In this document: positions 1 through 16,913 of the stretch, one piece after another | Layout of the letters: each line of letters starts with the position of its first letter | Numbering within the stretch: the stretch's first letter is position 1 | Origin: Burkholderiaceae bacterium | Lineage (GTDB): Bacteria; Pseudomonadota; Gammaproteobacteria; Burkholderiales; Burkholderiaceae_C | Direction: 5' to 3' | NCBI GenBank assembly: GCA_031253955.1 | Contig: JAIRVJ010000126.1 | Span: forward strand, 20,342 to 84,341 | Length of the DNA stretch: 64,000 nucleotides | Program-made: the position numbers and the translations under genes | The notes under the pieces: generated by a model | The model's database searches: none | Seen by the model: the letters and a program-made list of their open reading frames with translations, nothing else | Told to the model about the DNA's origin: nothing

Positions 1-1020
1 CACCGGCCATCCCTGCAAATGCCGCTGCGCGATTTGCGTCAGCGCGGCAATCCAGGCAGGAGAGTCGTTCAGACAGGGGACGGCGTGCAGTTCGCGTCCG
101 CCGGCGGCCTGAAACGCGGCGCGCGCTTGCAGGCCGATTTCTTCCAGCGTTTCCAGACAATCGCTGACGAAGCCGGGGCACGCCACATCGACCCGGCTCG
201 CGCCCTGCCGCGCCAGCCGCTCCAGCGTGGGCTGCGTGGCCGGTTCCAGCCAGCGGGCGCGGCCCATGCGCGACTGGAAGGCCAGCTGCCAGCGGCTTTC
301 TTCCAATTCCAGGCGCGCGGCCAGCAGGCGGGCGGTCTGGCGGCATTGTTCGGGGTACGGATCGCCCAGCCGGGCGGCGCGCTCGGGCAGGCCGTGAAAG
401 CTCATCACCAGATGGTCCGGCCGGCCATGCTCTTGCCAATAGCCGCGAATGCGCGCGGCCAGCGCTGCGATGTAACCCGCGTCGTCATGAAACTGGTTGA
501 CCAGGCGCAGCTCCGGCAGGCGGCGCTGCCGGGCCGCCCAGGCGCTCACCGCGTCCACCGCGCTGGCCGTGGTGCTGGCGGCGTACTGCGGATACAAAGG
601 CAAAATCAGTATGTGCTGGCAGCCGCGCGCCTTCAATTCGTCCAGCCCGCTGGCGATGGAAGGCTGACCGTAGCGCATGGCCGCGCGCACATGCACTTTG
701 GCTCCAAGCTCGCCAAGATAGCCGCGCAGCAGCACGGCCTGCCGGGCGCTCCACACCGCCAGCGGTGAGCCGTCCGCCGTCCACACCTTGGCGTACTTGG
801 CTGCCGAGCGCGCCGGGCGGGTGCGCAAAATCACCCCGTGCAAAATAAGCAGCCAGAGCAGGCGCGGCCACTCCACCACGCGCGGATCGCTCAAAAATTC
901 GGCCAGATAGTGCCGCACGGCGGCGGTGGCGGGAGCTTGCGGGGTGCCCAGGTTGACCAGCAACACGCCTACACACGGCCCTTGGTCCTGCTCCACCGCC
1001 GGTTCATCCTGAAAACGCAT
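1..1020 (-). CDS. hemH: Ferrochelatase (3' end just outside the window)
   Basis: Manual translation from ATG at 1020: MRFQDE...GVLLVNLGTP...YLAEFLSDPRVVE; near position 1 reads CPGFVSDCLETLEEIG...PCLND. Not in the ORF track because no stop falls in the window. Confidence 0.95.
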   Translation of the reverse strand, partial: MRFQDEPAVEQDQGPCVGVLLVNLGTPQAPATAAVRHYLAEFLSDPRVVEWPRLLWLLILHGVILRTRPARSAAKYAKVWTADGSPLAVWSARQAVLLRGYLGELGAKVHVRAAMRYGQPSIASGLDELKARGCQHILILPLYPQYAASTTASAVDAVSAWAARQRRLPELRLVNQFHDDAGYIAALAARIRGYWQEHGRPDHLVMSFHGLPERAARLGDPYPEQCRQTARLLAARLELEESRWQLAFQSRMGRARWLEPATQPTLERLARQGASRVDVACPGFVSDCLETLEEIGLQARAAFQAAGGRELHAVPCLNDSPAWIAALTQIAQRHLQGWPV

Positions 1021-1129
1021 GGCGCTATTGTGAGGCACACGCGCAATGCTCCACCTTATCCGCAACGACAGCGCGACCGCGCCGGCCCCTGTCTTCAAAG
1101 CTCCTGTCTGTTTCTCCAACTTGCCATGA

Positions 1130-1157
1130 TCGACATATGCAAAACATATGCTATCAT
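1130..1157 (+). promoter_or_regulatory. Putative vapBC promoter with two operator-like boxes
   Basis: TCGACA (1130-35), 16 bp, extended -10 TGcTATCAT (1149-57); ACATATGC at 1133-40 and 1144-51. Confidence 0.55.
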
Positions 1158-1189
1158 GGCGCCATCGCACCAGCCCAAGAGGTTCCGTC

Positions 1190-1426
1190 ATGCGCACCGT
1201 TTCAATTTTCATAAACAACAGAAATCAGGCAGTACGTATTCCGAGAGAACTGGAATTCAAAGGAATTTCCGAGCTGGAAATACTCAAAGAAGGCAATTGC
1301 CTGATTCTTCGTCCGGTGCGTTCGTCGTGGCGTTCGCTGCTTGACGAGCCGAAAGCGGATGCGGATTTTTTGACAGAGCGCCCTGCCGTCATTGATGAAA
1401 CCCGCTTCCTGAAAGGCTTTGAATGA
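1190..1426 (+). CDS. vapB: VapB antitoxin (AbrB/MazE-type)
   Basis: MRTVSIF...NQAVRIPRELEF...LILRPVRSSW; ATGA overlap with a PIN toxin gene. Confidence 0.9.
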   Translation: MRTVSIFINNRNQAVRIPRELEFKGISELEILKEGNCLILRPVRSSWRSLLDEPKADADFLTERPAVIDETRFLKGFE

Positions 1427-1839
1427 AAGCCTACATGCTGGACACAAATATTTGTTCTTTTATCATGCGGGAACATTCGGCGTCGGTTATCCAGCATCTT
1501 GAAGCGGCCGTGAAAGCTCGGTTCAGGATCGTTATTTCAGCCATCACCTACGCTGAAATGCGCTATGGAGCGGCCAGCCCCAAGGCACCGAAAAAAATAG
1601 AAAGCATGGTCAGCAGTTTCATAAATCGCCTCGATGACATTTTGCCGTGGAATGCCGAGGCGGTGGATATGAGCGTGCAAATCCGCAAAGAGCTGGCCCG
1701 CCGGGGAACGCCCATCGGCGAAAATGATGCGGCCATTGCAGGCCACGCCCTGTCTGCAAACTGCATCCTGGTGACCAACAATACACGGGAGTTTGCCAGG
1801 GTGGACGGCCTTCAGATCGTGGACTGGCGGAATGGCTGA
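1423..1839 (+). CDS. vapC: VapC PIN-domain toxin
   Basis: YMLDTNICSFIM, ISAITYAE, GENDAAIAGHA, LVTNNTREF. Confidence 0.93.
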   Translation: MKAYMLDTNICSFIMREHSASVIQHLEAAVKARFRIVISAITYAEMRYGAASPKAPKKIESMVSSFINRLDDILPWNAEAVDMSVQIRKELARRGTPIGENDAAIAGHALSANCILVTNNTREFARVDGLQIVDWRNG

Positions 1840-1906
1840 ACACTTTCGCCCCGCAAAAATCTTATCCGCCCGCTGAAAATCAGTTTCATCTGCGCTATCC
1901 GCCGAC

Positions 1907-2773
1907 ATGCCGCCCGAACTGACCGCCTCTTTCCAATCCCTGCAACAGATGAGCCGCGCCTTCGCCGCCCTGCTGCCCAATTTGATCATCGCCGCGCTGG
2001 TGCTGCTGCTGATGCACGTGGCCGCCCTCGGCGCTGACCGGGGCGTGCGGCGTATCGCCGAAAAAACCGACCGGCCCACCAAGGTGGCGCTGGTGCTGGG
2101 GCGGCTGGCGCGCTGGGCCGTGATGGTGCTGGGTCTGCTGGTGGCCGCCACCATCGCCGTGCCGTCCTTTCATGCCAGCGCGCTGCTGGGCGCGCTGGGT
2201 ATTGGCGGCGTGGCCATCGGCTTTGCCTTCAAGGACATTTTCCAGAACCTGGCCGCCGGCCTGCTGCTGCTGCTCACGCGCCCGTTTCACATCGGCGATG
2301 TGATCGTCAGCGACCCGCACGAAGGCACGGTGGAAGACATCCAGATGCGCGCCACGCTGGTGCGCGCCTACGACAACCGGCTGATCGTCATCCCCAACAG
2401 CGATCTGTACACCGCCCGCGTGATCGTGCTCACCTCCAAACCCACGCGGCGCGGCGAAGTGACGCTAGGCATCGGCCACGGCGCGGATATCGAGCAGGTC
2501 AAGCAAATCATCACAGGGGCCATCGCCGATCTGCCGCAACTGGAGCGCGAACCGGCGCCCGGCGTGTATGCCACCGGGCTAAACCCGTCCAGCATCATGC
2601 TGTCGGTGCGCTTCTGGATCGACACCGCCGGCGGCAGCGCCCGCAACATGGTGACCGCCACCGACGCGGTCATCGTCGCCGTCAAAAACGCGCTGGACGC
2701 GGCGCACATCGAGATCGCCTACCCCACCCACGTCATGCTGCGCAACCCGCAGACCGGCGGTCAGCCGGACTGA
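1907..2773 (+). CDS. Small-conductance mechanosensitive channel family protein
   Basis: Three TM segments, GFAFKDIFQNLAAG, PFHIGDVI, IPNS, EIAYPT. Confidence 0.88.
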   Translation: MPPELTASFQSLQQMSRAFAALLPNLIIAALVLLLMHVAALGADRGVRRIAEKTDRPTKVALVLGRLARWAVMVLGLLVAATIAVPSFHASALLGALGIGGVAIGFAFKDIFQNLAAGLLLLLTRPFHIGDVIVSDPHEGTVEDIQMRATLVRAYDNRLIVIPNSDLYTARVIVLTSKPTRRGEVTLGIGHGADIEQVKQIITGAIADLPQLEREPAPGVYATGLNPSSIMLSVRFWIDTAGGSARNMVTATDAVIVAVKNALDAAHIEIAYPTHVMLRNPQTGGQPD

Positions 2774-2880
2774 AAGCCACCGCATTTCAGAACAAAACAG
2801 CCTGAACACCTTGTTATATAAGGGTTGCAAGCTATCAACAACGTAGCAACCGAGCGATGGATCGTTTGGACGCAAAATTT

Positions 2881-3043
2881 GGGAACTGCATACTTGACTT
2901 TTCCATCGTCATTCCCGCGAAGGCGGGAATCCATCGAGGTTGGGTTTCGGCTCATGGGTTCCTATAAAAGGTGACGCTCATGGATTCCCGCCTACGCGGG
3001 AATGACGGAAAAGAATGCAGGGAAAGTCAAGTATGTAGTTCCC
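2881..3043. repeat. Family A REP doublet with outer inverted repeats (spacer class 1)
   Basis: GTCATTCCCGCGAAGGCGGGAATCCA 2908-2933 and inverted copy 2981-3006; outer IR GGGAACTRCATACTTGACTTT at 2881 and ending 3043. Confidence 0.9.
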
Positions 3044-3060
3044 AAAAATTGCACCGTGCA

Positions 3061-3816
3061 TCAAGCGAATAACTCTTTTTCGATCCGCATCATGTATTTG
3101 TTTGTATAGAAAAGATCCGGTTCATGCCTGGATGGGCGAACCAGAATGCGGAAATCTGGATTAGCCGGCTTTGTTGCGTCAAAGGTGACGAGACCGATAC
3201 CGAAGATTTGGCAAAGTGAATCCAGCCGTGAAATTTCATCATCAGCTGACTGCCCAGGCACTACCAAATAAGCCTTGTGACTGAACAGCTTATAGGCGCA
3301 AGCTTGGCCGAATGCAGTGATGAGTTGATTGGAATCGGTTTTTATTTCGGCCGAGACGATCTCGGTTGGCCCCTTGATAACATCGCTGCGCCGGGACTCT
3401 TTTTTGCCGACAACATCCGGCGTGCCCCATTTGTCCTTGAATATATTACCGCCCAAGGGAATAGCGTGGGTCACATCCTCAATTTCATTTTTCAGCCAAT
3501 CGGCGAACGGGGCATAGAAATCTTCTTCCTTGATCTTGCTAGCCGCCAGCGCCAAAGATCCTGGCGTCGCTGGCGCGCCCTGCTCTTGATTCTTGAACGC
3601 CAGCAACCTGAACAGGCCCTTGGACGGTTTATAAACCTTGTCAGGAAACGCAATCTCCAGATTCCAGATCGAGCCATTGATGGTATTGCCATTAAAGGCG
3701 GGATCGAACTCCTGGATTTTATTGCGCAGCTCTGAATAACGAAGCCCTTCAGGATGCTGCTGCAACAGCTCGAATGCCTTGTCTTTGATCCGCTCTGTCA
3801 CTTTCTTCGATTGCAT
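3061..3816 (-). CDS. Putative N-terminal HTH plus C-terminal PD-(D/E)xK nuclease-like protein
   Basis: ATG at 3816 after AAGGAGAG, 14 bp downstream of res; GTPDVVG...SAEIK...FGQACAY motifs. Function inferred. Confidence 0.7.
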   Translation of the reverse strand: MQSKKVTERIKDKAFELLQQHPEGLRYSELRNKIQEFDPAFNGNTINGSIWNLEIAFPDKVYKPSKGLFRLLAFKNQEQGAPATPGSLALAASKIKEEDFYAPFADWLKNEIEDVTHAIPLGGNIFKDKWGTPDVVGKKESRRSDVIKGPTEIVSAEIKTDSNQLITAFGQACAYKLFSHKAYLVVPGQSADDEISRLDSLCQIFGIGLVTFDATKPANPDFRILVRPSRHEPDLFYTNKYMMRIEKELFA

Positions 3817-3830
3817 ATTGCCTCTCCTTT

Positions 3831-6539
3831 TCACGCCAGCTTGTCTGCGATCTGCCTGAACACATTGCGCCCCTGATCGTCGCGCTTGACGGCAAACAGG
3901 AACAGGCAGCGTCCGCCGCTTGTTTGTTCCCATTGATGCCCAACCTGCTGCTTCTCGCGCGAGTCATCGTTGGTCTTGTAAGGCTCTCCTTTGTATTCGA
4001 CAACCAGAACCCGGTCATCTTCCAGTTCGGCCACGAAATCAGGGTAAAAATAGTCGGTAGATGTCGGCAACCAGAACGAGAATTTCTCCTGCCGTTCAAT
4101 GTTGCGCACCCACCGCTTGACCTTGGGGCAACCTTCAATCGCCGTTGCACAAATGAATTCTTCGGAGTCCTGGCCCGCCTGTGTTTTCTCGCGCAGGTCG
4201 TGGATGACCGGATAGAAGTGCTTCTTGAACTCAAAGCCGCCCTGGTAAGGTTGCCGCGCCGGATATTGACCCGGTCGGAAGTGGAAGCTGTAATGCGCCA
4301 CTTGTTCCACCGTCGGCACTGCCATATCAACTAACCGCAACTGGAAACCCTTGGCCATCGCTATCTGGCGCAGTCTGGCGATTTCCTGCCGCAAGGCCTG
4401 CGCCAATTGAAACTTGGCCCGCACCAGCGCCGTCAGCGACAAGCCACGATCCGCCGTAAGGTGCGTCACCATCTTGACCAGATAGGCCTGCATCTGATTC
4501 TGGCCGATGTCGGTCTGACGCAATTCACCGTCGAGCCACCGCACCAGATCCTGCTGGCTGATTTGACTGTTCACCTCGTTCAGATGAAGTTGCTGCGCAT
4601 CGATGTGACGGTACTTGACTTTCTCGCCGTTCACGTCGATCTCGAAGGTGTTGACAGTCTCGGTAATGTCGAAGCGGGCAAGTTGCACCGGTTGATCCAG
4701 CAAGTTCCAATCGCCCAGGCTGGACAGCGTCTCGCGCTCCACGACTTCCAGATATCCGTCCAGTTCCAGACAAAGCTGCGGAACCGGCGCGAAGCTCAAG
4801 CCGAGTTGGGCCGGCGCCCGCATGGCCTGCCGGATGGCGCGGTGAGCATCGAATTGTTCTTTGACCTTGGCGCGTTCCTTGGGCGGCAGTGCCTGGCTGA
4901 TGCACGCTTCAGCCTGTTGCAGTGTTTCGCTGCTGACATCGCCGGACAGCAGCGCCGTCGCGCCCTGGCTGGTTTGCCTGATCCGCACCACGGCTTTGAT
5001 CTGGGCGGGCCAGTGCTCAGTATCGGGCGCGGCAGGCAGATCAATGTGGCAATCCGGCAGCGGCGCGGACGTAGCGGCAGCGCCTGCTTGTGGGCTGGAT
5101 GAAGCGGCTGCCTCGCCTCCTCCTGCCAGAGGCAGGAGCTGCTGGGGCACGATCATCGTGGCCGTTTCCAGCTTTTCAAAGCCCATGTTCTGAACCATGC
5201 GGTCCTTCAACGCCGCCGCCGCCTGCGCGAAGTTCTCCGCGACGATGTGGGCATAGGCGCGGTTCAACTCCCCCTGGGTGCGGTTGCGGGCATAAGGCAT
5301 CCGCAGCACGCGGCCCAGCAACTGCTCTACATCCTTGGCCGATTTCACCGATTGCAGGCTGGCCAGCACGTAGGCAAACGAGCAGTCCCAGCCCTCCTTC
5401 AAAGCTTCAACCGTGATGACGAAGCGGATGGGACAAGCCGGATCGAACAGATTGATGCCGTCCAGTTCCTTTTGCGCACCGGTAGCCACGGCAATCTGGT
5501 TTTCAGGTATCCGTTCCTGCACGATCAAGTGCTGGCGCACGGCTTCAACCACAGCCTCGCCGCCCTTGGGCTGGGCTTGCACCAGCACGATGGGGCGCAT
5601 GTAATCCGGCTCTTTCTGTGCCAGCAGTTCCAGGCCAGCGCGGTGGAGCGCCGCGTCGCGCAAGCACTCGCGCCAGCCTTGGGGATGCTCGGCCAGCACG
5701 ATGGGCAGTTTGATCATCTGCTCGGCCTTCAACTCCGTCGCGGCCACGTGATACAGCACGTTGTTGCCGGGAACTGGCGTGGCCGTCAATTCGATGATGC
5801 AGCCTGGATTCACACGCCCCAGTGTTTTAAAAAAGCGGTCGGTGCGGTTGTTGTGGGCTTCATCCACAATCACAATGGGGCGTTGCAAGTGCAGCCAGTT
5901 TGCCACTGAATACTTCACGCGCCCGAGGTCTTTGGCCGTCAGATAGGATTGCGCCGCCAAGTCGCTTTCGCCAACCGTCTCCAAGCCCGGCGTCAGGTAC
6001 GGCGGCAAACCGTCGAAGTGCGGCGCCAGTTCCTCGAAAAACGAATAGACGTTGCGTTTGGCGGTGTCCGTAACGTTGAACGCCTGAATGGTGGCAACCA
6101 CCACGATGGCGGCCTTGCCCACATCGTGCGGGCTGATGGTCTGCAAACTCTCCAGATCGCACACCCGCACCCGATCCCCAAAATAATGCGCCAGGGCCTG
6201 CCGGTACGGATGCCGGGCGTTGTCCAAAGCCTCGATGGTCTGCGCCCGCACCGTATCCGAGGGCGTAAGCCACAGAGCTACAGGGGCGTCGGTATCCAGC
6301 GCCGTCTTGCCGGCCAGCGCCACCGCGTGTGCAGCCATGATGGTTTTGCCGCCGCCCGTGGGCACCCGCAGACAGACCGCTGGCGTATCGCCAAACAGGG
6401 CTTGATACGGCTCGCCGGCGCGCCCTTGCCGGACCAGCAATGCAGCATAAGCTTCGGCCACGGGCTTGCTGCGGCAAGCGGTCAGGAACTCCGCCAAGAT
6501 CTCCAGCGCGGTCTGCTGATAGGTCTTCAAGGTCAACAT
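3831..6539 (-). CDS. res: Type III restriction enzyme Res subunit (SF2 helicase plus nuclease)
   Basis: VPTGGGKT, DEAH, ALKEGWD, QLLGRVLR, C-terminal YPDFV...VEYKG; directly downstream of mod. Confidence 0.9.
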   Translation of the reverse strand: MLTLKTYQQTALEILAEFLTACRSKPVAEAYAALLVRQGRAGEPYQALFGDTPAVCLRVPTGGGKTIMAAHAVALAGKTALDTDAPVALWLTPSDTVRAQTIEALDNARHPYRQALAHYFGDRVRVCDLESLQTISPHDVGKAAIVVVATIQAFNVTDTAKRNVYSFFEELAPHFDGLPPYLTPGLETVGESDLAAQSYLTAKDLGRVKYSVANWLHLQRPIVIVDEAHNNRTDRFFKTLGRVNPGCIIELTATPVPGNNVLYHVAATELKAEQMIKLPIVLAEHPQGWRECLRDAALHRAGLELLAQKEPDYMRPIVLVQAQPKGGEAVVEAVRQHLIVQERIPENQIAVATGAQKELDGINLFDPACPIRFVITVEALKEGWDCSFAYVLASLQSVKSAKDVEQLLGRVLRMPYARNRTQGELNRAYAHIVAENFAQAAAALKDRMVQNMGFEKLETATMIVPQQLLPLAGGGEAAASSSPQAGAAATSAPLPDCHIDLPAAPDTEHWPAQIKAVVRIRQTSQGATALLSGDVSSETLQQAEACISQALPPKERAKVKEQFDAHRAIRQAMRAPAQLGLSFAPVPQLCLELDGYLEVVERETLSSLGDWNLLDQPVQLARFDITETVNTFEIDVNGEKVKYRHIDAQQLHLNEVNSQISQQDLVRWLDGELRQTDIGQNQMQAYLVKMVTHLTADRGLSLTALVRAKFQLAQALRQEIARLRQIAMAKGFQLRLVDMAVPTVEQVAHYSFHFRPGQYPARQPYQGGFEFKKHFYPVIHDLREKTQAGQDSEEFICATAIEGCPKVKRWVRNIERQEKFSFWLPTSTDYFYPDFVAELEDDRVLVVEYKGEPYKTNDDSREKQQVGHQWEQTSGGRCLFLFAVKRDDQGRNVFRQIADKLA

Positions 6540-6560
6540 CTTCTTTTTCTCTCCCTGGAT

Positions 6561-8096
6561 TCAGCGCATCTTGATGTCGTAGGGCATCTGCTTGAACGTG
6601 ATGCCCTCCGCCGCCAGCCGCGCCGCGCCTAAGCGCGACACCTCGCCATAAACCACGCGCCGCCCCTCGTGCGGCAACACCGTCTTGATGGCTTGCAGCA
6701 CCTGATGCGTGAGCACATTTCCGCCCGCTGGCCTGCGGTCACCCAGAATGCCGTTGAACAGCAGGTAATAGGCAATGCCGTTGTGCACGCCCAGCAGCGG
6801 CGAATCGAAAACCTGGCGGCCCGGCTCGCCGGTCTCGAAGTGCCAGAGATAGGCAGCCAAGGTAGCGAACTTCACTTGGCTATTGATGCGGCCATCGGCG
6901 TCAAAAGCCGCGTTGCCCAGCGTGCAAAAACGAAAGCCCCCGCCGCCATGCCAGTCAACAGCTTGACTGATGCCGCCCTGCTCGCCTTCAATCACTTTTT
7001 GCAAACGCGGCAGGCAATGGGTGCGAGCATGATCGCCCATTTCGATGCCGATGTAGCGGCGGCCCATTTTGTGAGCAACGGCGGCGGTGGTGCCGGAACC
7101 AAGAAATGAATCAAGAACGAGATCATCAGGGTTGGTGGAAATCTGCATAACCGTTTGAATTAATCGTTCAGGTTTTGGAGTAGAAAATTTGTCCACTCCA
7201 AAAAGCGCCAGCATTTCTTTAGCAGCTTCTTGGGTATGCCCTGCAAGGGTATGTTTCCAAAACGACATAGGCATCATGCCTTGTTGAATTTCAGAAAAAA
7301 AATTCTTTAGACGAGGTACCGATTGAGTCCCCTTTGCACCCCACCAAATCCGGTTCTCACGAACATTTCGCTCATGTATTTCTCTGGACATTGCCCAAAC
7401 ACGAGTTCTCTTCGGCCATATTTCTTCCCCAGTTTTAGGTTGAAGGATTGAGTAAAAAAGATTTGGGCGCTCATCAGCAGTGTAACGGCATGTATAATCC
7501 ATTGATTGCCATGGGCCGCGAAAATCATCATCTGGATTTTTATAACGACCAGATTGATCTTCTGTCAATGGTAATAATTTTCTAACAAATATTGATGTTT
7601 TTCTATACACTAAAATATGATCATGAACGTAACCAAAATCTTTCGTATCTGGTGGTGGAGAAAATCTTTTCTCCCAAGCAATATCACATAAAAAGTTTAC
7701 CCGCCCAAACACCTCATCACACAACACCTTCAGATACTGTGCCTCATTATCGTCAATAGTGATCCAAACACTCCCATCTTCAGCCAGCAAATCGCGCAGC
7801 AAAACCAGTCTGGGATACATCATTGACAGCCATTGGCTGTGTTCGAGCTTGTCGTCGTAGTGCTCGAAGGCGCTTTGCGTGTTATAGGGCGGGTCGATAA
7901 AGACGCACTTGACCTGCCCGGCGTAAAACGGAATCAGCGCCTTTAGCGCCAGCAGGTTGTCGCCCTGAATCAGCAGGTTGCCGGCATTCCCGCCGCTTAC
8001 ATCGCCATGCGACGCCTCATGCTTGAGCAAGTGGTAGGGAACTGTCCTAGCGGCCCCCTTGGCCTGGTTCTTGTTCACCCAGTCGAGAAACGGCAT
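6561..8096 (-). CDS. mod: Type III DNA adenine methyltransferase Mod (beta class)
   Basis: IDPPYN (motif IV), then a variable region, then DSFLGSGTT (motif I); TPKPERL. Confidence 0.9.
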   Translation of the reverse strand: MPFLDWVNKNQAKGAARTVPYHLLKHEASHGDVSGGNAGNLLIQGDNLLALKALIPFYAGQVKCVFIDPPYNTQSAFEHYDDKLEHSQWLSMMYPRLVLLRDLLAEDGSVWITIDDNEAQYLKVLCDEVFGRVNFLCDIAWEKRFSPPPDTKDFGYVHDHILVYRKTSIFVRKLLPLTEDQSGRYKNPDDDFRGPWQSMDYTCRYTADERPNLFYSILQPKTGEEIWPKRTRVWAMSREIHERNVRENRIWWGAKGTQSVPRLKNFFSEIQQGMMPMSFWKHTLAGHTQEAAKEMLALFGVDKFSTPKPERLIQTVMQISTNPDDLVLDSFLGSGTTAAVAHKMGRRYIGIEMGDHARTHCLPRLQKVIEGEQGGISQAVDWHGGGGFRFCTLGNAAFDADGRINSQVKFATLAAYLWHFETGEPGRQVFDSPLLGVHNGIAYYLLFNGILGDRRPAGGNVLTHQVLQAIKTVLPHEGRRVVYGEVSRLGAARLAAEGITFKQMPYDIKMR

Positions 8097-12433: not shown

Positions 12434-12591
12434 AATTTTTCGGACCCAATCCAAAGTCTTGTCGATGAAAAATACCCGCAGCAAACGGTTGTCGAATGCT
12501 ACAGATACAAGAGCGCCAAGTCATTGCACCACCTTGACAAAATCCGAAAACCGCTTGATTAGGTAGCTATCTCAGACAGGGATAACCACCA

Positions 12592-12656
12592 CCGCGCGCT
12601 CCTTCCTTGCCCGTCATTCCCGCGCAGGCTGGAATGACGGGAAAGGAGCGCGCGGC
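12592..12656. repeat. Collapsed family A doublet in a GC hairpin
   Basis: GTCATTCC-cgcgcaggct-GGAATGAC 12613-38, flanked by CCGCGCGCTCCTT and AAGGAGCGCGCGG. Confidence 0.75.
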
Positions 12657-12803
12657 GGGGTTGTGCTTGTCTGGAGGTATGTACATAATCAAGCATGAGC
12701 ACATGGAAAGTCACACAGTCAAGCGCAACCAGCCATCAACTTTGATGCACTCAAAGTTTTATAAAACCACCTGACCCGCACCCTCCGCAACAACCAAATT
12801 TCA

Positions 12804-14618
12804 ATGCCTTCTCGTCTTGCGTTGCCCAAGCGCATCCTCTGGCTCGTCTGCCTGTGGCTGCTTTGCTTGGCCGCGCCCATGCAGGCGCAAGGCAGCATCA
12901 TTACGGGCGACCAGCTTACCCGCATCGAGCAACTCGGCGCCGACAACCAAACCATCGTTCTGGCCTACGACAGCCAAGGCAACCTGATCGAAAAACAAAG
13001 CGGGGCGCAAACCACCAGCTACCAGTGGGACGCCAACGACCGCCTCACAAGCGTCAGCCAGGACGGCACGCTGCTGGGCCAATACCGCAACAACGCGCAG
13101 GGCCTGCGCGTAGAAAAACACGCCAGCGACCCGCTCCACCCCGGCGCCCCGCCGCAAAAAACCACCTGGCTGTGGGACCAAGACACCCCCATCCAGGAAA
13201 GCAACGCAGCCGCCACCGTCGTAGCGCGCTACGAATTTGCGGGCCGGGAACCCATCGGGCTGTTGCACGCCCAAGACGGCGCGCAAAGCCTGCACCCCGA
13301 CGGGCTAGGCTCCATCGTGCTGACCACCGACACAGGCGGCAACATCCACCGCGAAACCATCTTTGACGCCTGGGGCAACACCATCGCCGAAAGCGGCCCG
13401 CCGGCCAACCGGCTGGGCTACACAGGCCACCAGATGGATCAGGAAAGCGGCCTGATCTACATGCAGGCGCGCTACTAAGACCCGCAGATCGGGCGGTTCC
13501 TGAGCATGGATCCGGCCGACGGAAGCATCGAAACGCCGGCCAGCTACCACCGCTACTTGTATGCGTATGGGAATCCGACGGTTTATATCGATCTGGATGG
13601 ACAAGAATCGGTCAGCACCATGATCGACAACGGCGCTGAACGCTGCGGCCCCTTGGGTTGCATGGGCTGGGCGCTGCTCAAAGGCGTGTACACCGTAGCG
13701 ACCCTGGGTTTCTCCACCGTTCACGACCCTGTACACGACGCCTACGACGAAGGCCGGGTCAGCGGCAAGCAATACGTCGGCTACGGCATCGGCGGCGGCC
13801 TGGCGGTCGTGGGCGTCAATGCCGTCACCGGGCGCGTAGGCGGCACGCTCATGGCCCGGGCCGGCGCACCGCTCATTGCCAAAGCCGCCGTGGGAGCGGC
13901 CACCGGTGCGGTAAGCGGCGCCATCAACGACGCGGGCACCCAAGCGGCGCACATTGGCGCCGGGATCCAGCAAGAATACGACACGACCCGCACGCTGGAT
14001 GCCATGAAAACCGGCGCGATCGTCGGCGGCCTGGTGCCGGTGGGCGCGCAAGCGGTGGTTAGCACTGAAGCGACAGTCAAGCAGGCGCTGGCCAGCCGGG
14101 CGGCAGCCAGACTGGAGACGGCCACCGGCCAGAGCACGCAAGTCACGCGAGCGGCCGCGCAACGCGAAACGCCCACGGCGGCGATCTCGGCGGGCAACCG
14201 CACCATCACGCAAGAAAGCGCGAGCACGGCGGGAGTGACGGCAGCGCCAGCAACCAGAGCAACCGTGGCGGCAGAGACCGGGGTGGCCAATGGTGGGAGA
14301 GCGGTGGTTCAAATAAGCAATGCGGCAAAGGGGGGAATGGAAACGACGACGGCTATCGGTCGCGTCAAAGATTTGCAGAACCTCTGCCCTGGCGAGAAGT
14401 CACTGCTTGACCGTTTGCCGAATCAAGGCAGCCCGAAGGCAAATTGGCAACAGAACTCAGGCGTCTTACGAGAAGAGATGCGTCTTGGTAATCCAATTCG
14501 TGATGCGTCGCCTGGTAATACGGCGGGTCAATTCCTCAACGCCGAGCGCAACTTGTTGATGGATCGAGGATGGACGTTTGATCCCAAGACTAACTATTGG
14601 ATGCCTCCTAAACCATGA
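12804..14618 (+). pseudogene. Shortened Rhs/YD-repeat toxin with signal peptide and in-frame nonsense codon
   Basis: The two tracked ORFs are one frame: ...GLIYMQARY-TAA(13476-78)-DPQIGRFLSMDP...NPTVYIDLDG, then a C-terminal toxin region. The hydrophobic N-terminus ends in PMQA. Confidence 0.85.
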
Positions 14619-15193
14619 AAAGGGATGTCGTGAACGCGCCCGATCGATCTCAGTTGCACTTTGTACAGAAGGTTCGGGAGTTCTTCTCGTTCCTTGTCGA
14701 TGAGGGCTTTACCGAAATTGAGGCGTCACCGACGCAGGTGATATATCGGAACGGTGGCATCGAAGTTGACGTCTATCATGAACGCCTGTCGTATGAAGTT
14801 GGAGGTGGCATTACCGTAGCTGGAATTTGCTATGCAATCTCAGAAATAGTGTGTGTCAGCGATCCTGAAGCGGCTTCGAATTATCGGAATGTTATGGCAA
14901 CAACGCCCAAGGTATTAGCGGCTGGCATAGAGAAGTTGAGTGTGCTGATGCAATGCTACGGCGCAGCGGCGTTACATGGTGATCCGCATTTCTTCTCAAT
15001 GCTCGAAGAACAGCGAAAGCAGTGGTCGCAAGAATTCGCCCTCGATGTCCTGGAACATCAGTTGCGACCGCAGGCCGAAGATGCGTTCCGTCGAAGAGAT
15101 TACTCGAAGGCGGCTGAGTTATATGGTTCCATCCGGGAGCGTCTTAGTCCTGCGGAGGCCAAAAAGCTGGCTTTAGCCGAAGCAAGGAAATAA
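14615..15193 (+). CDS. Putative cognate immunity protein
   Basis: ATGA overlap with the toxin tip, lower GC, 192 aa. Role inferred from position only. Confidence 0.65.
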   Translation: MKRDVVNAPDRSQLHFVQKVREFFSFLVDEGFTEIEASPTQVIYRNGGIEVDVYHERLSYEVGGGITVAGICYAISEIVCVSDPEAASNYRNVMATTPKVLAAGIEKLSVLMQCYGAAALHGDPHFFSMLEEQRKQWSQEFALDVLEHQLRPQAEDAFRRRDYSKAAELYGSIRERLSPAEAKKLALAEARK

Positions 15194-15208: not shown

Positions 15209-15796
15209 ATGGGTCTCTTTGTGTTTCTATCTTCCTACCGTTACTTGTCTCTTCCGAACGGCTGCACGGCTGTCCTAACGAAACCAACGGCGCAGAATCT
15301 GGCCAACGCAGCCAAGCAGGAACGTCCTCCGAATCCCGCCATCGTGACTGGGAAGAAGACGCCACTTGGCGTCACAGCAGAGCCACCACCAGCGCAGCAG
15401 GCAAGCGTAGTGGCGGAAACTGGGGTTGTTGCAAAGGAGGCAAAGGGAGGAACCGGGGCAAAGAGTACGATACAAGCGAATAACGCTGCTGGCAATGCGT
15501 TTGAGAAGCAGGTCGTTGGACAAGTCCAGCAAACCCATTCTGAGGTTGTACAACAAGTTACCCTCAAAACTGAAGGTGGGGTCAAAACATGTATGGATAT
15601 AATGGGGCGTGACGCAAATGGGAATATCGTTTACATTGAATGTAAAGCGTCTCCGACCGCACCGTTGACTAAAAACCAAACGGTCGCCTTTCCTGAAATC
15701 CAGAAATCAGGTGCAACAATCGTTGGTCAGGGTAAGCCGGGCTTTCCAGGAGGTACAAAAATACCTCCGACCACGGTCGATATAATCAGGCTGTAA
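15209..15796 (+). CDS. Orphan toxin C-terminal module, PD-(D/E)xK nuclease-like (true start uncertain)
   Basis: GNAFEKQV...MDIMGRD...IECKAS...NQ; no Rhs core; shares a junction peptide with the main gene. Confidence 0.7.
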   Translation: MGLFVFLSSYRYLSLPNGCTAVLTKPTAQNLANAAKQERPPNPAIVTGKKTPLGVTAEPPPAQQASVVAETGVVAKEAKGGTGAKSTIQANNAAGNAFEKQVVGQVQQTHSEVVQQVTLKTEGGVKTCMDIMGRDANGNIVYIECKASPTAPLTKNQTVAFPEIQKSGATIVGQGKPGFPGGTKIPPTTVDIIRL

Positions 15797-15810
15797 AAGG
15801 AGGTGGTGAA

Positions 15811-16137
15811 ATGTCCATAGACCAAACGAATGTAGTAGACATCATCGGGACTGATAACGAGACAAGAGATGTGGTGTTATTCATCACGGATCATCTCATG
15901 TGGTCAGAAAACCTTAATGAACACCTTCTGTTGCTACAAGAAAAACTCAATACCTATTTGAGTTTCGTTGAAAGCGGTGAGCTATTGGAGAGATACCCAA
16001 ACGCAAAAGATAGGGCTGTATTAATAGATGTTGTGTGCAAGTATCCGCCGAGTCAGCAGGCTCAAGGCTTCTGCAACCAAGCTGCGCAAATTATCGAAGG
16101 TGCCGGAATGAAACTCCGGTTCTCCCATCCGCATTAG
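15811..16137 (+). CDS. Putative immunity protein (DUF6572-like)
   Basis: RBS AAGGAGG; VVDIIG...LFITDHLMW...HLLLLQEKLNTYLSFVESGEL recalled as the DUF6572 pattern. Confidence 0.7.
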   Translation: MSIDQTNVVDIIGTDNETRDVVLFITDHLMWSENLNEHLLLLQEKLNTYLSFVESGELLERYPNAKDRAVLIDVVCKYPPSQQAQGFCNQAAQIIEGAGMKLRFSHPH

Positions 16138-16229: not shown

Positions 16230-16381
16230 TTTGATAGCGCCTAGCCTCATTCCATCACAGTTTTACATATTAAAACATCATTAAACACACACTAACCGCG
16301 GGCATTGTACTATTAATTTCGATACAAGAGAAGTTTTATAAAGCCACCTGACCCGCGCCGTCCGCAAGAAGCAACATCCCC

Positions 16382-16543
16382 ATGCGTTCCCCCCTTGCTC
16401 CGCTCAAGCACCTGCTTGTACTTGGCTGCATGGGAATGTTTTGCCTTGCGCCGCCCGCAAGGGCCAAGTTCGACGCCGACGCGAGCAACCGTTTGAGCAA
16501 CTTGGTGCGTGTCACTGACGCCAGCGGTCACGCCGTCAGCTAG
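16382..16543 (+). pseudogene. Second signal-peptide/YD-like gene start (53 codons)
   Basis: MRSPLAPLKHLLVLGCMGMFCLAPPARAK aligns with the leader at 12804; shared upstream 37-mer. Not in the ORF track. Confidence 0.65.
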
Positions 16544-16691: not shown

Positions 16692-16769
16692 AAGGTAACG
16701 CTTACCACGAATAGAAGTGTCAACACTTGAACCAAAACCGCTCTAACCGCCACCGCGCTTTCTTTCCCC

Positions 16770-16898
16770 GTCATTCCCGCGCAGGCGGGAATCCATTGAC
16801 GTTCCCACCCTGCATACCGTCAATGACCGGGCAGCGCCCGTGCGTTCCAGCGCCGGATGGAGGTGACGCTCATGAATTTCCGCCTGCGCGGGACTGAC
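16770..16898. repeat. Family A doublet (degenerate right copy)
   Basis: Copies at 16770-95 and 16873-98. Confidence 0.8.
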
Positions 16899-16913
16899 GA
16901 AGTTGAGGCAGGT

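What the first reader, a model, noticed from the sequence alone, without database searches (positions are those of the whole stretch)
12804..13560. Mini-Rhs with a Sec-type signal peptide, inactivated by one nonsense codon in the ARYYDP motif
Seen: a 28-aa hydrophobic leader ending PMQA is fused directly to only the last few YD repeats and the Rhs core. TAC-TAA-GAC replaces Tyr-Tyr-Asp, and the frame continues intact for about 380 codons. Known: proteobacterial Rhs toxins are usually over 1000 aa and are delivered by T6SS via PAAR/VgrG; signal-peptide Rhs/WapA proteins use other export routes. Inference: either a deletion relic of a Sec-exported Rhs or a naturally miniature class, recently silenced. 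A sequencing error is also possible.
Basis: partly seen in the sequence, partly recalled or inferred. Interest (0 to 1): 0.62.

Follow-up and report, generated by a model that had tools for sequence, protein, structure and literature searches.

The report
Short signal-peptide Rhs toxin, one stop codon
This is a short, self-contained bacterial "Rhs" toxin gene with an export signal and its own antidote gene, apparently switched off by a single stop codon; intact genes of the same short design occur in other bacteria, so the design is natural and not a one-off wreck.

Summary
A 604-codon frame (12804-14618) opens with a 28-aa Sec-type leader. It runs through about 190 aa of YD repeats into the Rhs core, and it is broken once, by TAA at 13476-78. 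That codon falls at position 38 of the 76-position Rhs core profile; 379 open codons follow.

Intact proteins with the same layout exist. They have a leader, 140-230 aa of YD repeats, the core and a variable toxin, 530-640 aa in total. One family is in Tahibacter and several others are in metagenomes. Three such genes were checked and stand alone with an immunity gene. The short form is therefore a natural, recurring architecture.

The window's YD/core is most similar (50-68%) to the C-terminal ends of about 3,450-aa signal-peptide Rhs proteins. Its nearest relative has a homologous leader and 228 more residues of repeats, so this copy probably shrank by repeat loss.

A model gives a 16-strand sheet, about a fifth of an Rhs cocoon. 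It corresponds to the conserved C-terminal plug and autoprotease module.

The 90-aa toxin tip is widespread and unassigned. The next gene is its cognate immunity.

The genome has a type II secretion system. No type VI secretion system or TcB was found.

Verdict: a probable recent pseudogene of an under-described Rhs variant.

The parts
12583..12660 (.). REP-like hairpin at the left edge of the islet
   Evidence: Inverted repeats I5 and I10, and direct repeats D3 and D6 shared with 16744-16792.
12735..12797 (+). Conserved 5' untranslated segment, copy A
   Evidence: 79% identical to 16312-16374, which precedes the second leader (D1). No sigma-70 consensus match was found.
12804..12887 (+). Sec-type leader, 28 aa, ending PMQA
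   Evidence: Has n, h and c regions. Predicted helix at residues 9-21. Similar to leader B (0 of 1000 shuffles reach the score) and to the leader of P0002 (2 of 1000).
12888..13475 (+). YD-repeat beta-sheet (16 strands) and the first half of the Rhs core
   Evidence: PF05593, TIGR01643 and TIGR03696 positions 1-37. AlphaFold2 pLDDT above 90 over residues 50-230. Foldseek matches Rhs cocoons at about E 1e-11, with TM-score relative to the target of 0.17-0.20.
13476..13478 (+). In-frame TAA at the second Tyr of the ARYYDP core motif
   Evidence: It falls at profile position 38 of TIGR03696. Intact homologues have Tyr at this position.
13479..13604 (+). Second half of the Rhs core, up to the P-x4-D-x-x-G cleavage motif (PTVYIDLDGQ)
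   Evidence: TIGR03696 positions 39-76. 68% identical to P0002 with no gaps. The conserved core aspartates all lie downstream of the stop.
13605..14063 (+). Gly/Ala-rich, mildly hydrophobic pre-toxin region (aa 268-420)
   Evidence: 34% Gly+Ala and three hydrophobic segments. The region is conserved in P0003 to P0006, which carry different tips. No Pfam match.
14064..14345 (+). Ala/Thr/Gln-rich linker ending in the AKGG junction
   Evidence: Composition. The junction motif is repeated ahead of the orphan tip (D7).
14346..14618 (+). 90-aa toxin tip of an unassigned family, plus the stop codon
   Evidence: 45-86% identical to the C-termini of 74 Rhs and CdiA/DUF637 proteins. Invariant residues are G, W, N, R, IR, S and AER. 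The AlphaFold2 model has pLDDT 80.8 and a small alpha/beta fold. No PDB match; best E 0.44.
14615..15193 (+). Cognate immunity gene, 192 aa, overlapping the toxin's stop (ATGA)
   Evidence: 60% identical to the ORF that immediately follows a CdiA-type protein carrying the same tip in a Zoogloea MAG. Low GC.
15209..15796 (+). Orphan linker-plus-tip fragment without an Rhs core
   Evidence: ORF. Shares the AKGG junction with the main gene (D7). No Pfam match. A D...E-x-K motif suggests a nuclease; this is inference only.
15811..16137 (+). DUF6572 gene, the presumed immunity for the orphan tip
   Evidence: PF20212 at E 5.6e-37. GC 45-49%.
16312..16543 (+). Second copy of the 5' segment, leader and first YD unit, cut off after 53 codons
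   Evidence: D1. The leader alignment scores 55, a score reached by 0 of 1000 shuffles.
16744..16900 (.). REP-like hairpins at the right edge of the islet
   Evidence: I2, I3, I6, D3, D6.

Best explanation
The locus is a small, low-GC toxin/immunity islet flanked by REP elements, lying between a transporter gene and queG.

Its main gene is a short-form Rhs polymorphic toxin. A Sec leader is fused to only the conserved C-terminal part of the Rhs fold. That part is about 16 beta-strands plus the Rhs core that carries the aspartyl autoprotease. A Gly/Ala-rich pre-toxin region, a linker and a 90-aa toxin tip follow. The overlapping next gene is the cognate immunity.

Proposed working mode (inferred). 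The leader takes the protein across the inner membrane. Release to the outside would use a route other than type VI secretion, for example the type II system the genome encodes. The Rhs core cleaves off the toxin-bearing C-terminus. No closed cocoon forms, because the sheet is about one fifth of one.

This copy carries one nonsense codon just ahead of the conserved aspartates. It can therefore make only a 224-aa leader-plus-sheet stub. The islet now probably supplies immunity only.

The short form is a natural, recurring design. This copy most likely reached its length by in-frame loss of internal YD repeats from a longer gene with the same leader.
For: Shown:
- The stop falls exactly at core profile position 38, with homology on both sides.
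- The leader has n, h and c regions and is homologous to two other leaders.
- Intact proteins with the same layout exist: the Tahibacter family, 574-641 aa with 100% coverage including the leader, and P0032, P0037, P0039, P0040, P0033 and P0024. Pfam toxin domains are precomputed for P0032, P0037, P0040 and P0024.
- Three independent contexts show a stand-alone gene plus immunity, with no large rhs or T6SS genes nearby.
- The AlphaFold2 model has pLDDT 84.7 and 16 strands. It matches Rhs cocoons at about E 1e-11 and covers about 17-20% of the target.
- PMC8765631 describes a conserved C-terminal region of Rhs proteins that seals the cocoon and holds the aspartyl autoprotease, whose cleavage is needed for toxicity.
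- The tip and immunity pair is conserved across Rhs and CdiA carriers.
- The own genome has GspD twice. No TssC, PAAR, Hcp or TcB was found.
- P0002 has a homologous leader plus 228 extra residues of repeats.
- dN/dS is about 0.07-0.12 on both sides of the stop.

Inferred: the export route, cleavage without a cocoon, the role of the pre-toxin region, and that the stop is a true mutation.
Against: - The reads could not be inspected, so the stop may be an assembly error or a minority allele.
- No near-identical allele exists in public data for comparison.
- No short signal-peptide Rhs has been tested experimentally in any paper I found. The only paper that mentions short Rhs proteins treats them as probably unexpressed recombination cassettes.
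- The core region of the model is poorly predicted, with pLDDT about 50 after residue 240. Whether the autoprotease folds without a cocoon is therefore open.
- SignalP was not run.
- The MAG is 96.85% complete, so absence of a T6SS is not proven.
Confidence: 0.6

Rival explanations
1. One-off deletion relic. A longer Sec-exported Rhs gene lost most of its repeats by an accidental in-frame deletion, was non-functional from that moment, and the stop codon is simply further decay.
For: - The nearest relative, P0002, has 228 more residues between a homologous leader and the shared 234-aa block.
- The closest sequence relatives of the YD/core are the ends of about 3,450-aa signal-peptide Rhs proteins and their orphans.
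- The sheet cannot enclose a 335-aa cargo.
- The islet shows other debris: an orphan tip and a 53-codon leader stub.
- The genome's own giant Rhs also ends without a core.
Against: - The same short layout is intact and conserved in several unrelated families, with the leader joined at or within about 20 residues of the same repeat position. The three genes checked for context have their own immunity genes.
- In this copy only one defect is visible in 604 codons.
- The tip is 70-86% identical to its closest homologues.
Confidence: 0.2
2. The stop is not in the organism. It is an assembly or consensus error, or a minority variant fixed by the assembler, and the gene is intact and active in the population.
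For: - The genome is a MAG of 167 contigs with 4.77% contamination.
- A single third-position change is all that separates the codon from the Tyr found in all homologues.
- Everything else in the gene is intact.
Against: - Substitution errors are rare in short-read consensus. The exact 119-nt overlap between the ends of contigs C132 and C124 points to a de Bruijn short-read assembly; this is an inference.
- No 25-mer of the region is repeated in the genome.
- Loss of toxin genes with retention of immunity is common. This rests on general knowledge of polymorphic toxin loci.
Confidence: 0.15
3. It is an ordinary orphan Rhs C-terminal cassette left by C-terminal displacement, and the 'leader' is a chance hydrophobic ORF start.
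For: - Short Rhs genes with truncated repeat regions are usually such cassettes.
- Many of the closest homologues are orphans: P0008 lies downstream of a 3,461-aa Rhs, and P0020 and P0021 begin inside the repeats.
Against: - No rhs gene lies upstream. The neighbour is a divergently oriented transporter gene.
- The leader and its 63-nt upstream segment are duplicated at 16312-16543.
- The leader is significantly similar to those of stub B and P0002.
- Independent families have canonical leaders in the same place.
Confidence: 0.03

Closest known systems
T6SS-delivered Rhs effectors with solved cocoons (RhsA of Pseudomonas protegens 7Q97, RhsP 8H8B, Tse15 8UXT, Tse5 8CP6)
   Same: YD-repeat beta-sheet, the Rhs-associated core with the aspartyl-autoprotease motif region, a polymorphic C-terminal toxin and an adjacent immunity gene. 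The model matches these structures at about E 1e-11.
   Different: Only about 190 aa of repeats, against about 1,000. That is roughly a fifth of a cocoon and no closed container. There is no PAAR, VgrG-binding or prePAAR/TMD N-terminus; a Sec leader takes its place. No T6SS genes were found in the genome.
Sec/T2SS-type polymorphic toxins with RHS repeats (Zhang et al. 2012, PMC3482391), including giant signal-peptide + transglutaminase + RHS proteins
   Same: A signal peptide as the only trafficking signal, RHS repeats and a variable toxin tip. The window's YD/core is 50-57% identical to the ends of such ~3,450-aa proteins and their orphans in Oxalobacteraceae.
   Different: The transglutaminase, DUF6531 and about 2,800 aa of repeats are missing. 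The protein is about one sixth of their length.
Short Rhs proteins noted in bioRxiv 10.1101/2024.02.26.582050 (43 proteins under 100 kDa, with 2-16 YD repeats)
   Same: [quoted passage not shown] AlphaFold2 shows an incomplete container.
   Different: Those proteins came from a T6SS-centred list and were judged to be unexpressed recombination cassettes. The passages retrieved with the search term 'signal peptide' do not link one to these proteins. The gene here, and its intact analogues, have their own leader and their own immunity gene, and no parent rhs nearby.
Orphan Rhs-CT/immunity cassettes (C-terminal displacement; Jackson et al. 2009 PMC2935791; Steele et al. 2017 PMC5727410)
   Same: A truncated repeat region with an intact core, toxin and immunity. 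The fragment at 15209-16137 in this islet is a true orphan of this kind.
   Different: The main gene has its own start, leader and conserved 5' segment, and it is not downstream of a full-length rhs.
WapA of Bacillus subtilis and Streptococcus suis (Sec-exported YD-repeat toxins; PMC12704120)
   Same: Sec signal, YD repeats, polymorphic toxin and immunity, with no T6SS involved.
   Different: By general knowledge, WapA is a large, wall-anchored Gram-positive protein with a long repeat region. The gene here is short, lies in a Gram-negative genome (type II secretin genes) and has no wall-binding repeats.

Membership tests
Rhs / YD-repeat polymorphic toxins | YD (RHS) repeats | tested here: met
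   PF05593 at E 8.6e-8 and TIGR01643 at E 3.8e-7. The model shows a 16-strand hairpin sheet that matches Rhs cocoons.
Rhs / YD-repeat polymorphic toxins | Rhs-associated core (TIGR03696) with the PxxxxDPxG[LWF] cleavage motif | tested here: inconclusive
   The core scores 74.2 bits, over the cut-off, when the stop is read through. As encoded it is split at position 38. The motif reads PTVYIDLDGQ, so the Pro and the final Leu/Trp/Phe of the consensus are not kept. P0002 has PTIYIDPDGQ.
Rhs / YD-repeat polymorphic toxins | Closed beta-cocoon that encapsulates the toxin | tested here: not met
   About 190 aa of repeats. The TM-score relative to ~1,000-aa Rhs targets is 0.17-0.20.
Rhs / YD-repeat polymorphic toxins | Variable C-terminal toxin with an adjacent cognate immunity gene | tested here: met
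   The tip is shared with 74 Rhs and CdiA proteins. The downstream ORF is 60% identical to the ORF that follows the same tip in a CdiA locus.
T6SS Rhs effectors | PAAR, VgrG-linked or clade N-terminal domain, and a T6SS in the genome | tested here: not met
   The N-terminus is a 28-aa leader. TssC, PAAR and Hcp were not found in the 96.85%-complete MAG.
Tc toxin TcC subunits | A TcB partner that completes the cocoon | tested here: not met
   TcdB_toxin_midN was not found in the genome. No partner gene lies in the islet.
Sec/T2SS-type polymorphic toxins (Zhang 2012) | N-terminal signal peptide as the sole trafficking domain | tested here: inconclusive
   n, h and c regions are present, and candidate cleavage sites lie after residues 23, 24 and 30. 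The PMQA end has Met at -3, which is atypical. The leader is homologous to those of stub B and P0002, which end ARA and AQA. SignalP and an export assay were not available.
Sec/T2SS-type polymorphic toxins (Zhang 2012) | A general secretory or type II pathway in the host | tested here: met
   Two GspD matches over the curated cut-off.
Orphan Rhs-CT cassettes | Located downstream of a full-length rhs and lacking its own start or secretion signal | tested here: not met
   The upstream neighbour is a divergently oriented transporter gene. The gene has its own ATG, leader and conserved 5' segment.
Functional gene (any family) | Uninterrupted reading frame | tested here: not met
   TAA at 13476-78. 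The reads were not available.

The most novel reading that the evidence does not exclude
Signal-peptide 'mini-Rhs' proteins may be a functional, T6SS-independent toxin class. In them, the conserved C-terminal plug and aspartyl-autoprotease module of Rhs works on its own, without a cocoon. It would act as a self-cleaving carrier that releases a membrane-active pre-toxin and toxin after Sec export. The module spreads as a two-gene cassette with its immunity gene. The window holds a recently silenced member that arose from a giant Sec-type Rhs lineage by repeat loss.
Probability: 0.35. Interest if true: 0.6.

Novelty: new variant of a known kind. Interest (0 to 1): 0.4.

Why it matters
Rhs toxins are usually pictured as roughly 1,000-residue cocoons fired by the type VI system. 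Short Rhs genes are usually dismissed as silent spare parts.

This locus led to intact, conserved, stand-alone short Rhs genes that have their own export signal and their own immunity gene. Their existence suggests that the last fifth of the Rhs fold, the plug and autoprotease, may work as an independent delivery or processing module in bacteria without a type VI system. If so, annotation of short "RHS repeat-associated core" genes should change, and a compact self-cleaving carrier becomes available for study.

The copy in this window is probably dead, so its own biological weight is small. It mainly illustrates loss of a toxin with retention of immunity.

Tried and rejected
- Sibling alleles. 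An exact scan of metagenome contigs for a 36-mer spanning the stop, with the third codon base left free, found nothing. The protein clusters of both halves have one member each.
- A 94%-identical sibling of the immunity protein (P0453, on a 2.7-kb contig) was seen.
- Same-genus genomes. 36 were searched and none has a close homologue; the best identity is 36%. Synteny could therefore not date the stop.
- The genome-contig scan returned only Undibacterium orphans and did not name the window's own organism. The taxon remains unnamed. Relatives and gene content point to Burkholderiales, which is inference.
- Toxin tip. There was no Pfam or NCBIfam match. The PDB sequence search gave only a spurious weak hit. 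The fold search had a best E of 0.44; the botulinum and COP9 hits there are noise at TM below 0.3.
- Promoter scan. No sigma-70-like site lies in the conserved 5' segment.
- Recoding or an alternative genetic code was rejected, because the neighbouring genes end in TAA.
- Assembly chimera at the leader/repeat junction was rejected, because the region shares no 25-mer with any other part of the assembly.

Full report
**1. What is in the sequence**

The frame that opens at ATG 12804 runs for 604 codons, to TGA at 14616-18. It has one interruption, TAA at 13476-78, in the context TAC-TAA-GAC.

The first 28 residues, MPSRLALPKRILWLVCLWLLCLAAPMQA, have three basic residues, a strongly hydrophobic core and a small-residue end.

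Pfam and NCBIfam find RHS/YD repeats in the upstream piece. They also split the 76-position Rhs-associated core profile cleanly. Positions 1-37 end the upstream piece and positions 39-76 begin the downstream piece. The stop therefore sits exactly where the second Tyr of ARYYDP belongs.

Read through, the core scores 74.2 bits against a cut-off of 32.5.

**2. Anatomy of the whole gene and islet**

After the core, which ends PTVYIDLDGQ, three regions follow:
- A 150-aa Gly/Ala-rich, mildly hydrophobic region. It is conserved in relatives that carry other tips.
- An Ala/Thr/Gln-rich linker.
- A 90-aa tip.

The tip is 45-86% identical to the C-termini of 74 Rhs and CdiA/DUF637 proteins from many bacteria, and it has no Pfam family. 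Its AlphaFold2 model (pLDDT 80.8) is a small alpha/beta fold with no significant PDB match.

The next gene, 14615-15193, overlaps the toxin's stop. It is 60% identical to the ORF that immediately follows a CdiA-type protein with the same tip in a Zoogloea MAG. It is therefore the cognate immunity.

Three further elements follow:
- An orphan linker-plus-tip fragment at 15209-15796.
- A DUF6572 gene at 15811-16137.
- A second diverged copy of the 5' segment, leader and first YD unit at 16312-16543, which stops after 53 codons.

REP-like hairpins flank the whole 4.3-kb stretch. GC falls to 45-55% over the tips and immunity genes, against 62-73% over the flanking genes.

**3. Is the leader really part of the gene?**

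Yes, on three grounds:
- It is contiguous and in frame with the repeats.
- Its 63-nt upstream segment is 79% identical to the segment ahead of the second leader.
- The two leaders align with a score that none of 1000 composition-preserving shuffles reaches. The leader of the nearest homologue, P0002, aligns with a score that 2 of 1000 reach.

**4. Relic or natural short form?**

Two lines of evidence bear on this question.

*(a) Sequence relatives.* Residues 36-269 are 68% identical, without a gap, to residues 251-484 of P0002. P0002 is a 707-aa metagenomic protein with a homologous leader and 228 extra residues of YD repeats between the leader and the shared block.

The next relatives (50-57%) are of two kinds. 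Some are the last ~190 residues before the core of about 3,450-aa proteins, the four inspected of which have signal peptides; P0008's neighbour also carries transglutaminase and DUF6531 matches. Others are orphan cassettes downstream of such proteins in Duganella, Massilia and Undibacterium.

Residues 1-35 align with none of the giants. This copy therefore belongs to a Sec-type Rhs lineage in which the number of repeats varies greatly. It most likely became short by in-frame repeat loss.

*(b) Architecture relatives.* A 596-aa protein, P0200, aligned from residue 11 of the query. A search with it uncovered a family of about 17 proteins of 568-641 aa, plus two shorter fragments, including proteins from Tahibacter caeni and T. 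aquaticus. They are 47-88% identical over the leader, repeats and core, with diverging C-termini.

Their leaders join the repeats at the same NQLT position as in the window. A script over all fetched proteins found further independent examples (P0024, P0032, P0033, P0037, P0039, P0040). These have leaders and only 140-230 aa ahead of the core. Pfam toxin domains are precomputed for four of them: PF14411 (LHH, named), PF14021, PF20551 and PF15633.

Three contexts were examined:
- T. aquaticus: the gene plus an overlapping 128-aa gene.
- An LHH + SUKH pair among housekeeping genes.
- A gene with an SMI1_KNR4 neighbour next to Tn7-type TniB/TniQ genes.

None has a large rhs or T6SS genes within the flanks shown, 4-8 kb on each side.

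The short signal-peptide form is therefore a natural, recurring two-gene module.

**5. What the short Rhs part is**

The model of residues 1-275, with X at the stop and a 57-sequence alignment, has pLDDT 84.7. It shows a leader helix and 16 beta-strands. It matches solved Rhs cocoons (RhsA, RhsP, the Salmonella bongori Rhs, Tse15, Tse5) at about E 1e-11. The TM-score is 0.57-0.64 relative to the query for those five structures (0.47 for the teneurin at rank 10) and 0.13-0.20 relative to the targets, or about a fifth of a cocoon.

Guenther et al. (PMC8765631) describe a conserved C-terminal region in all Rhs proteins. Its repeats spiral inward, seal the cocoon and carry the aspartyl autoprotease, and its cleavage is required for killing.

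The short form keeps this module and nothing else of the shell. The core itself is poorly modelled (pLDDT about 50), so whether it folds and cleaves without a cocoon is open.

**6. Likely mechanism**

Shown: the domain order, the cognate immunity, the presence of two type II secretins, and no TssC, PAAR, Hcp or TcB found in the 96.85%-complete MAG.

Inferred: Sec export, autoproteolytic release of the C-terminal cargo, a membrane-entry role for the Gly/Ala-rich region, and exit by type II secretion, vesicles or lysis.

In this copy the stop precedes all conserved core aspartates. Only a 224-aa leader-plus-sheet stub can be made. The internal ATG at 13506 would give a protein without a leader or a complete autoprotease.

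**7. Is the stop real?**

The reads could not be examined. No near-identical allele exists in public proteins or metagenome contigs.

Indirect points favour a real and recent mutation:
- It is a substitution, not an indel.
- The assembly looks like a short-read de Bruijn assembly, given the exact 119-nt overlap between contig ends.
- The region shares no 25-mer with any other part of the assembly.
- Only one defect is visible in the gene.
- Long-term dN/dS against P0002 is about 0.07-0.12 on both sides of the stop.
- The locus and the genome show other Rhs decay. These are the leader stub, the orphan tip, a giant signal-peptide Rhs on C132/C124 that ends without a core, and two core fragments on C112.

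I put a true nonsense mutation at about 75% and an error or minority allele at about 15%.

**8. Comparison with the literature**

Signal peptide plus RHS repeats is a listed trafficking mode for polymorphic toxins (PMC3482391).

Short Rhs proteins with incomplete containers were noted in a T6SS-centred survey. That survey judged them to be probably unexpressed cassettes (bioRxiv 10.1101/2024.02.26.582050). Orphan cassettes are well described (PMC5727410).

Three literature searches found no description of conserved, stand-alone, signal-peptide short Rhs genes.

**9. Verdict**

The finding is real. Its interpretation is largely right, but the either/or was a false choice.

The gene is a probably dead member of an under-described short, signal-peptide variant of Rhs toxins. 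Interest is moderate. It comes from the class this locus points to, not from this copy itself.

Noticed in passing
window 15209-16137: An orphan toxin fragment and a DUF6572 gene. The fragment shares only the short AKGG junction with the main gene (14319-14337 against 15434-15452). Tip swapping in this lineage may therefore happen at the linker/tip boundary and not in the Rhs core. The fragment has a D...E-x-K pattern that resembles PD-(D/E)xK nucleases.
   Followed up: partly
own genome, C132:16216 to the contig end, plus C124:2-1843: A giant protein with a signal peptide, Ig-like repeats and Rhs repeats, about 3,080 aa of open frame. It is split over two contigs whose ends overlap by exactly 119 nt. 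It ends without an Rhs core or a toxin, just before an efflux-pump gene, so it may also be truncated.
   Followed up: partly
own genome, C112:7577-8665 and C112:9015-9869: Two further Rhs core-plus-toxin fragments, with open frames of 363 and 285 aa. They lie downstream of a regulator-like ORF, and no full-length rhs lies upstream.
   Followed up: no
window 13605-14063, and P0003 to P0006: A conserved Gly/Ala-rich, glycine-zipper-like region of about 150 aa lies directly after the Rhs cleavage motif. It is shared by relatives with different toxin tips, which makes it a candidate membrane-entry or translocation domain. It has no Pfam family.
   Followed up: partly
locus L027 (Logan SRR24075711 contig), 565-7236: A short signal-peptide Rhs gene and an SMI1_KNR4 immunity gene lie directly after Tn7-type TniB/TniQ genes and next to BREX-like genes. 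They may be transposon cargo.
   Followed up: no
window 14346-14615, and proteins P0378 to P0451: The 90-aa toxin tip (consensus TTVIGRVKDL..L.PGE.SLLDRLP..GSPKANW.QNSGVLRQEM..G.PIRDAS.GD..GQFLNAERNLL.DRGWTFD) is a widespread, highly conserved toxin domain on both Rhs and CdiA carriers. It has no Pfam model and no structural match.
   Followed up: partly
window 12583-12660 and 16744-16900: REP-like hairpins of the CGTCATTCCCGCGCAGGC type bracket the toxin islet on both sides.
   Followed up: no
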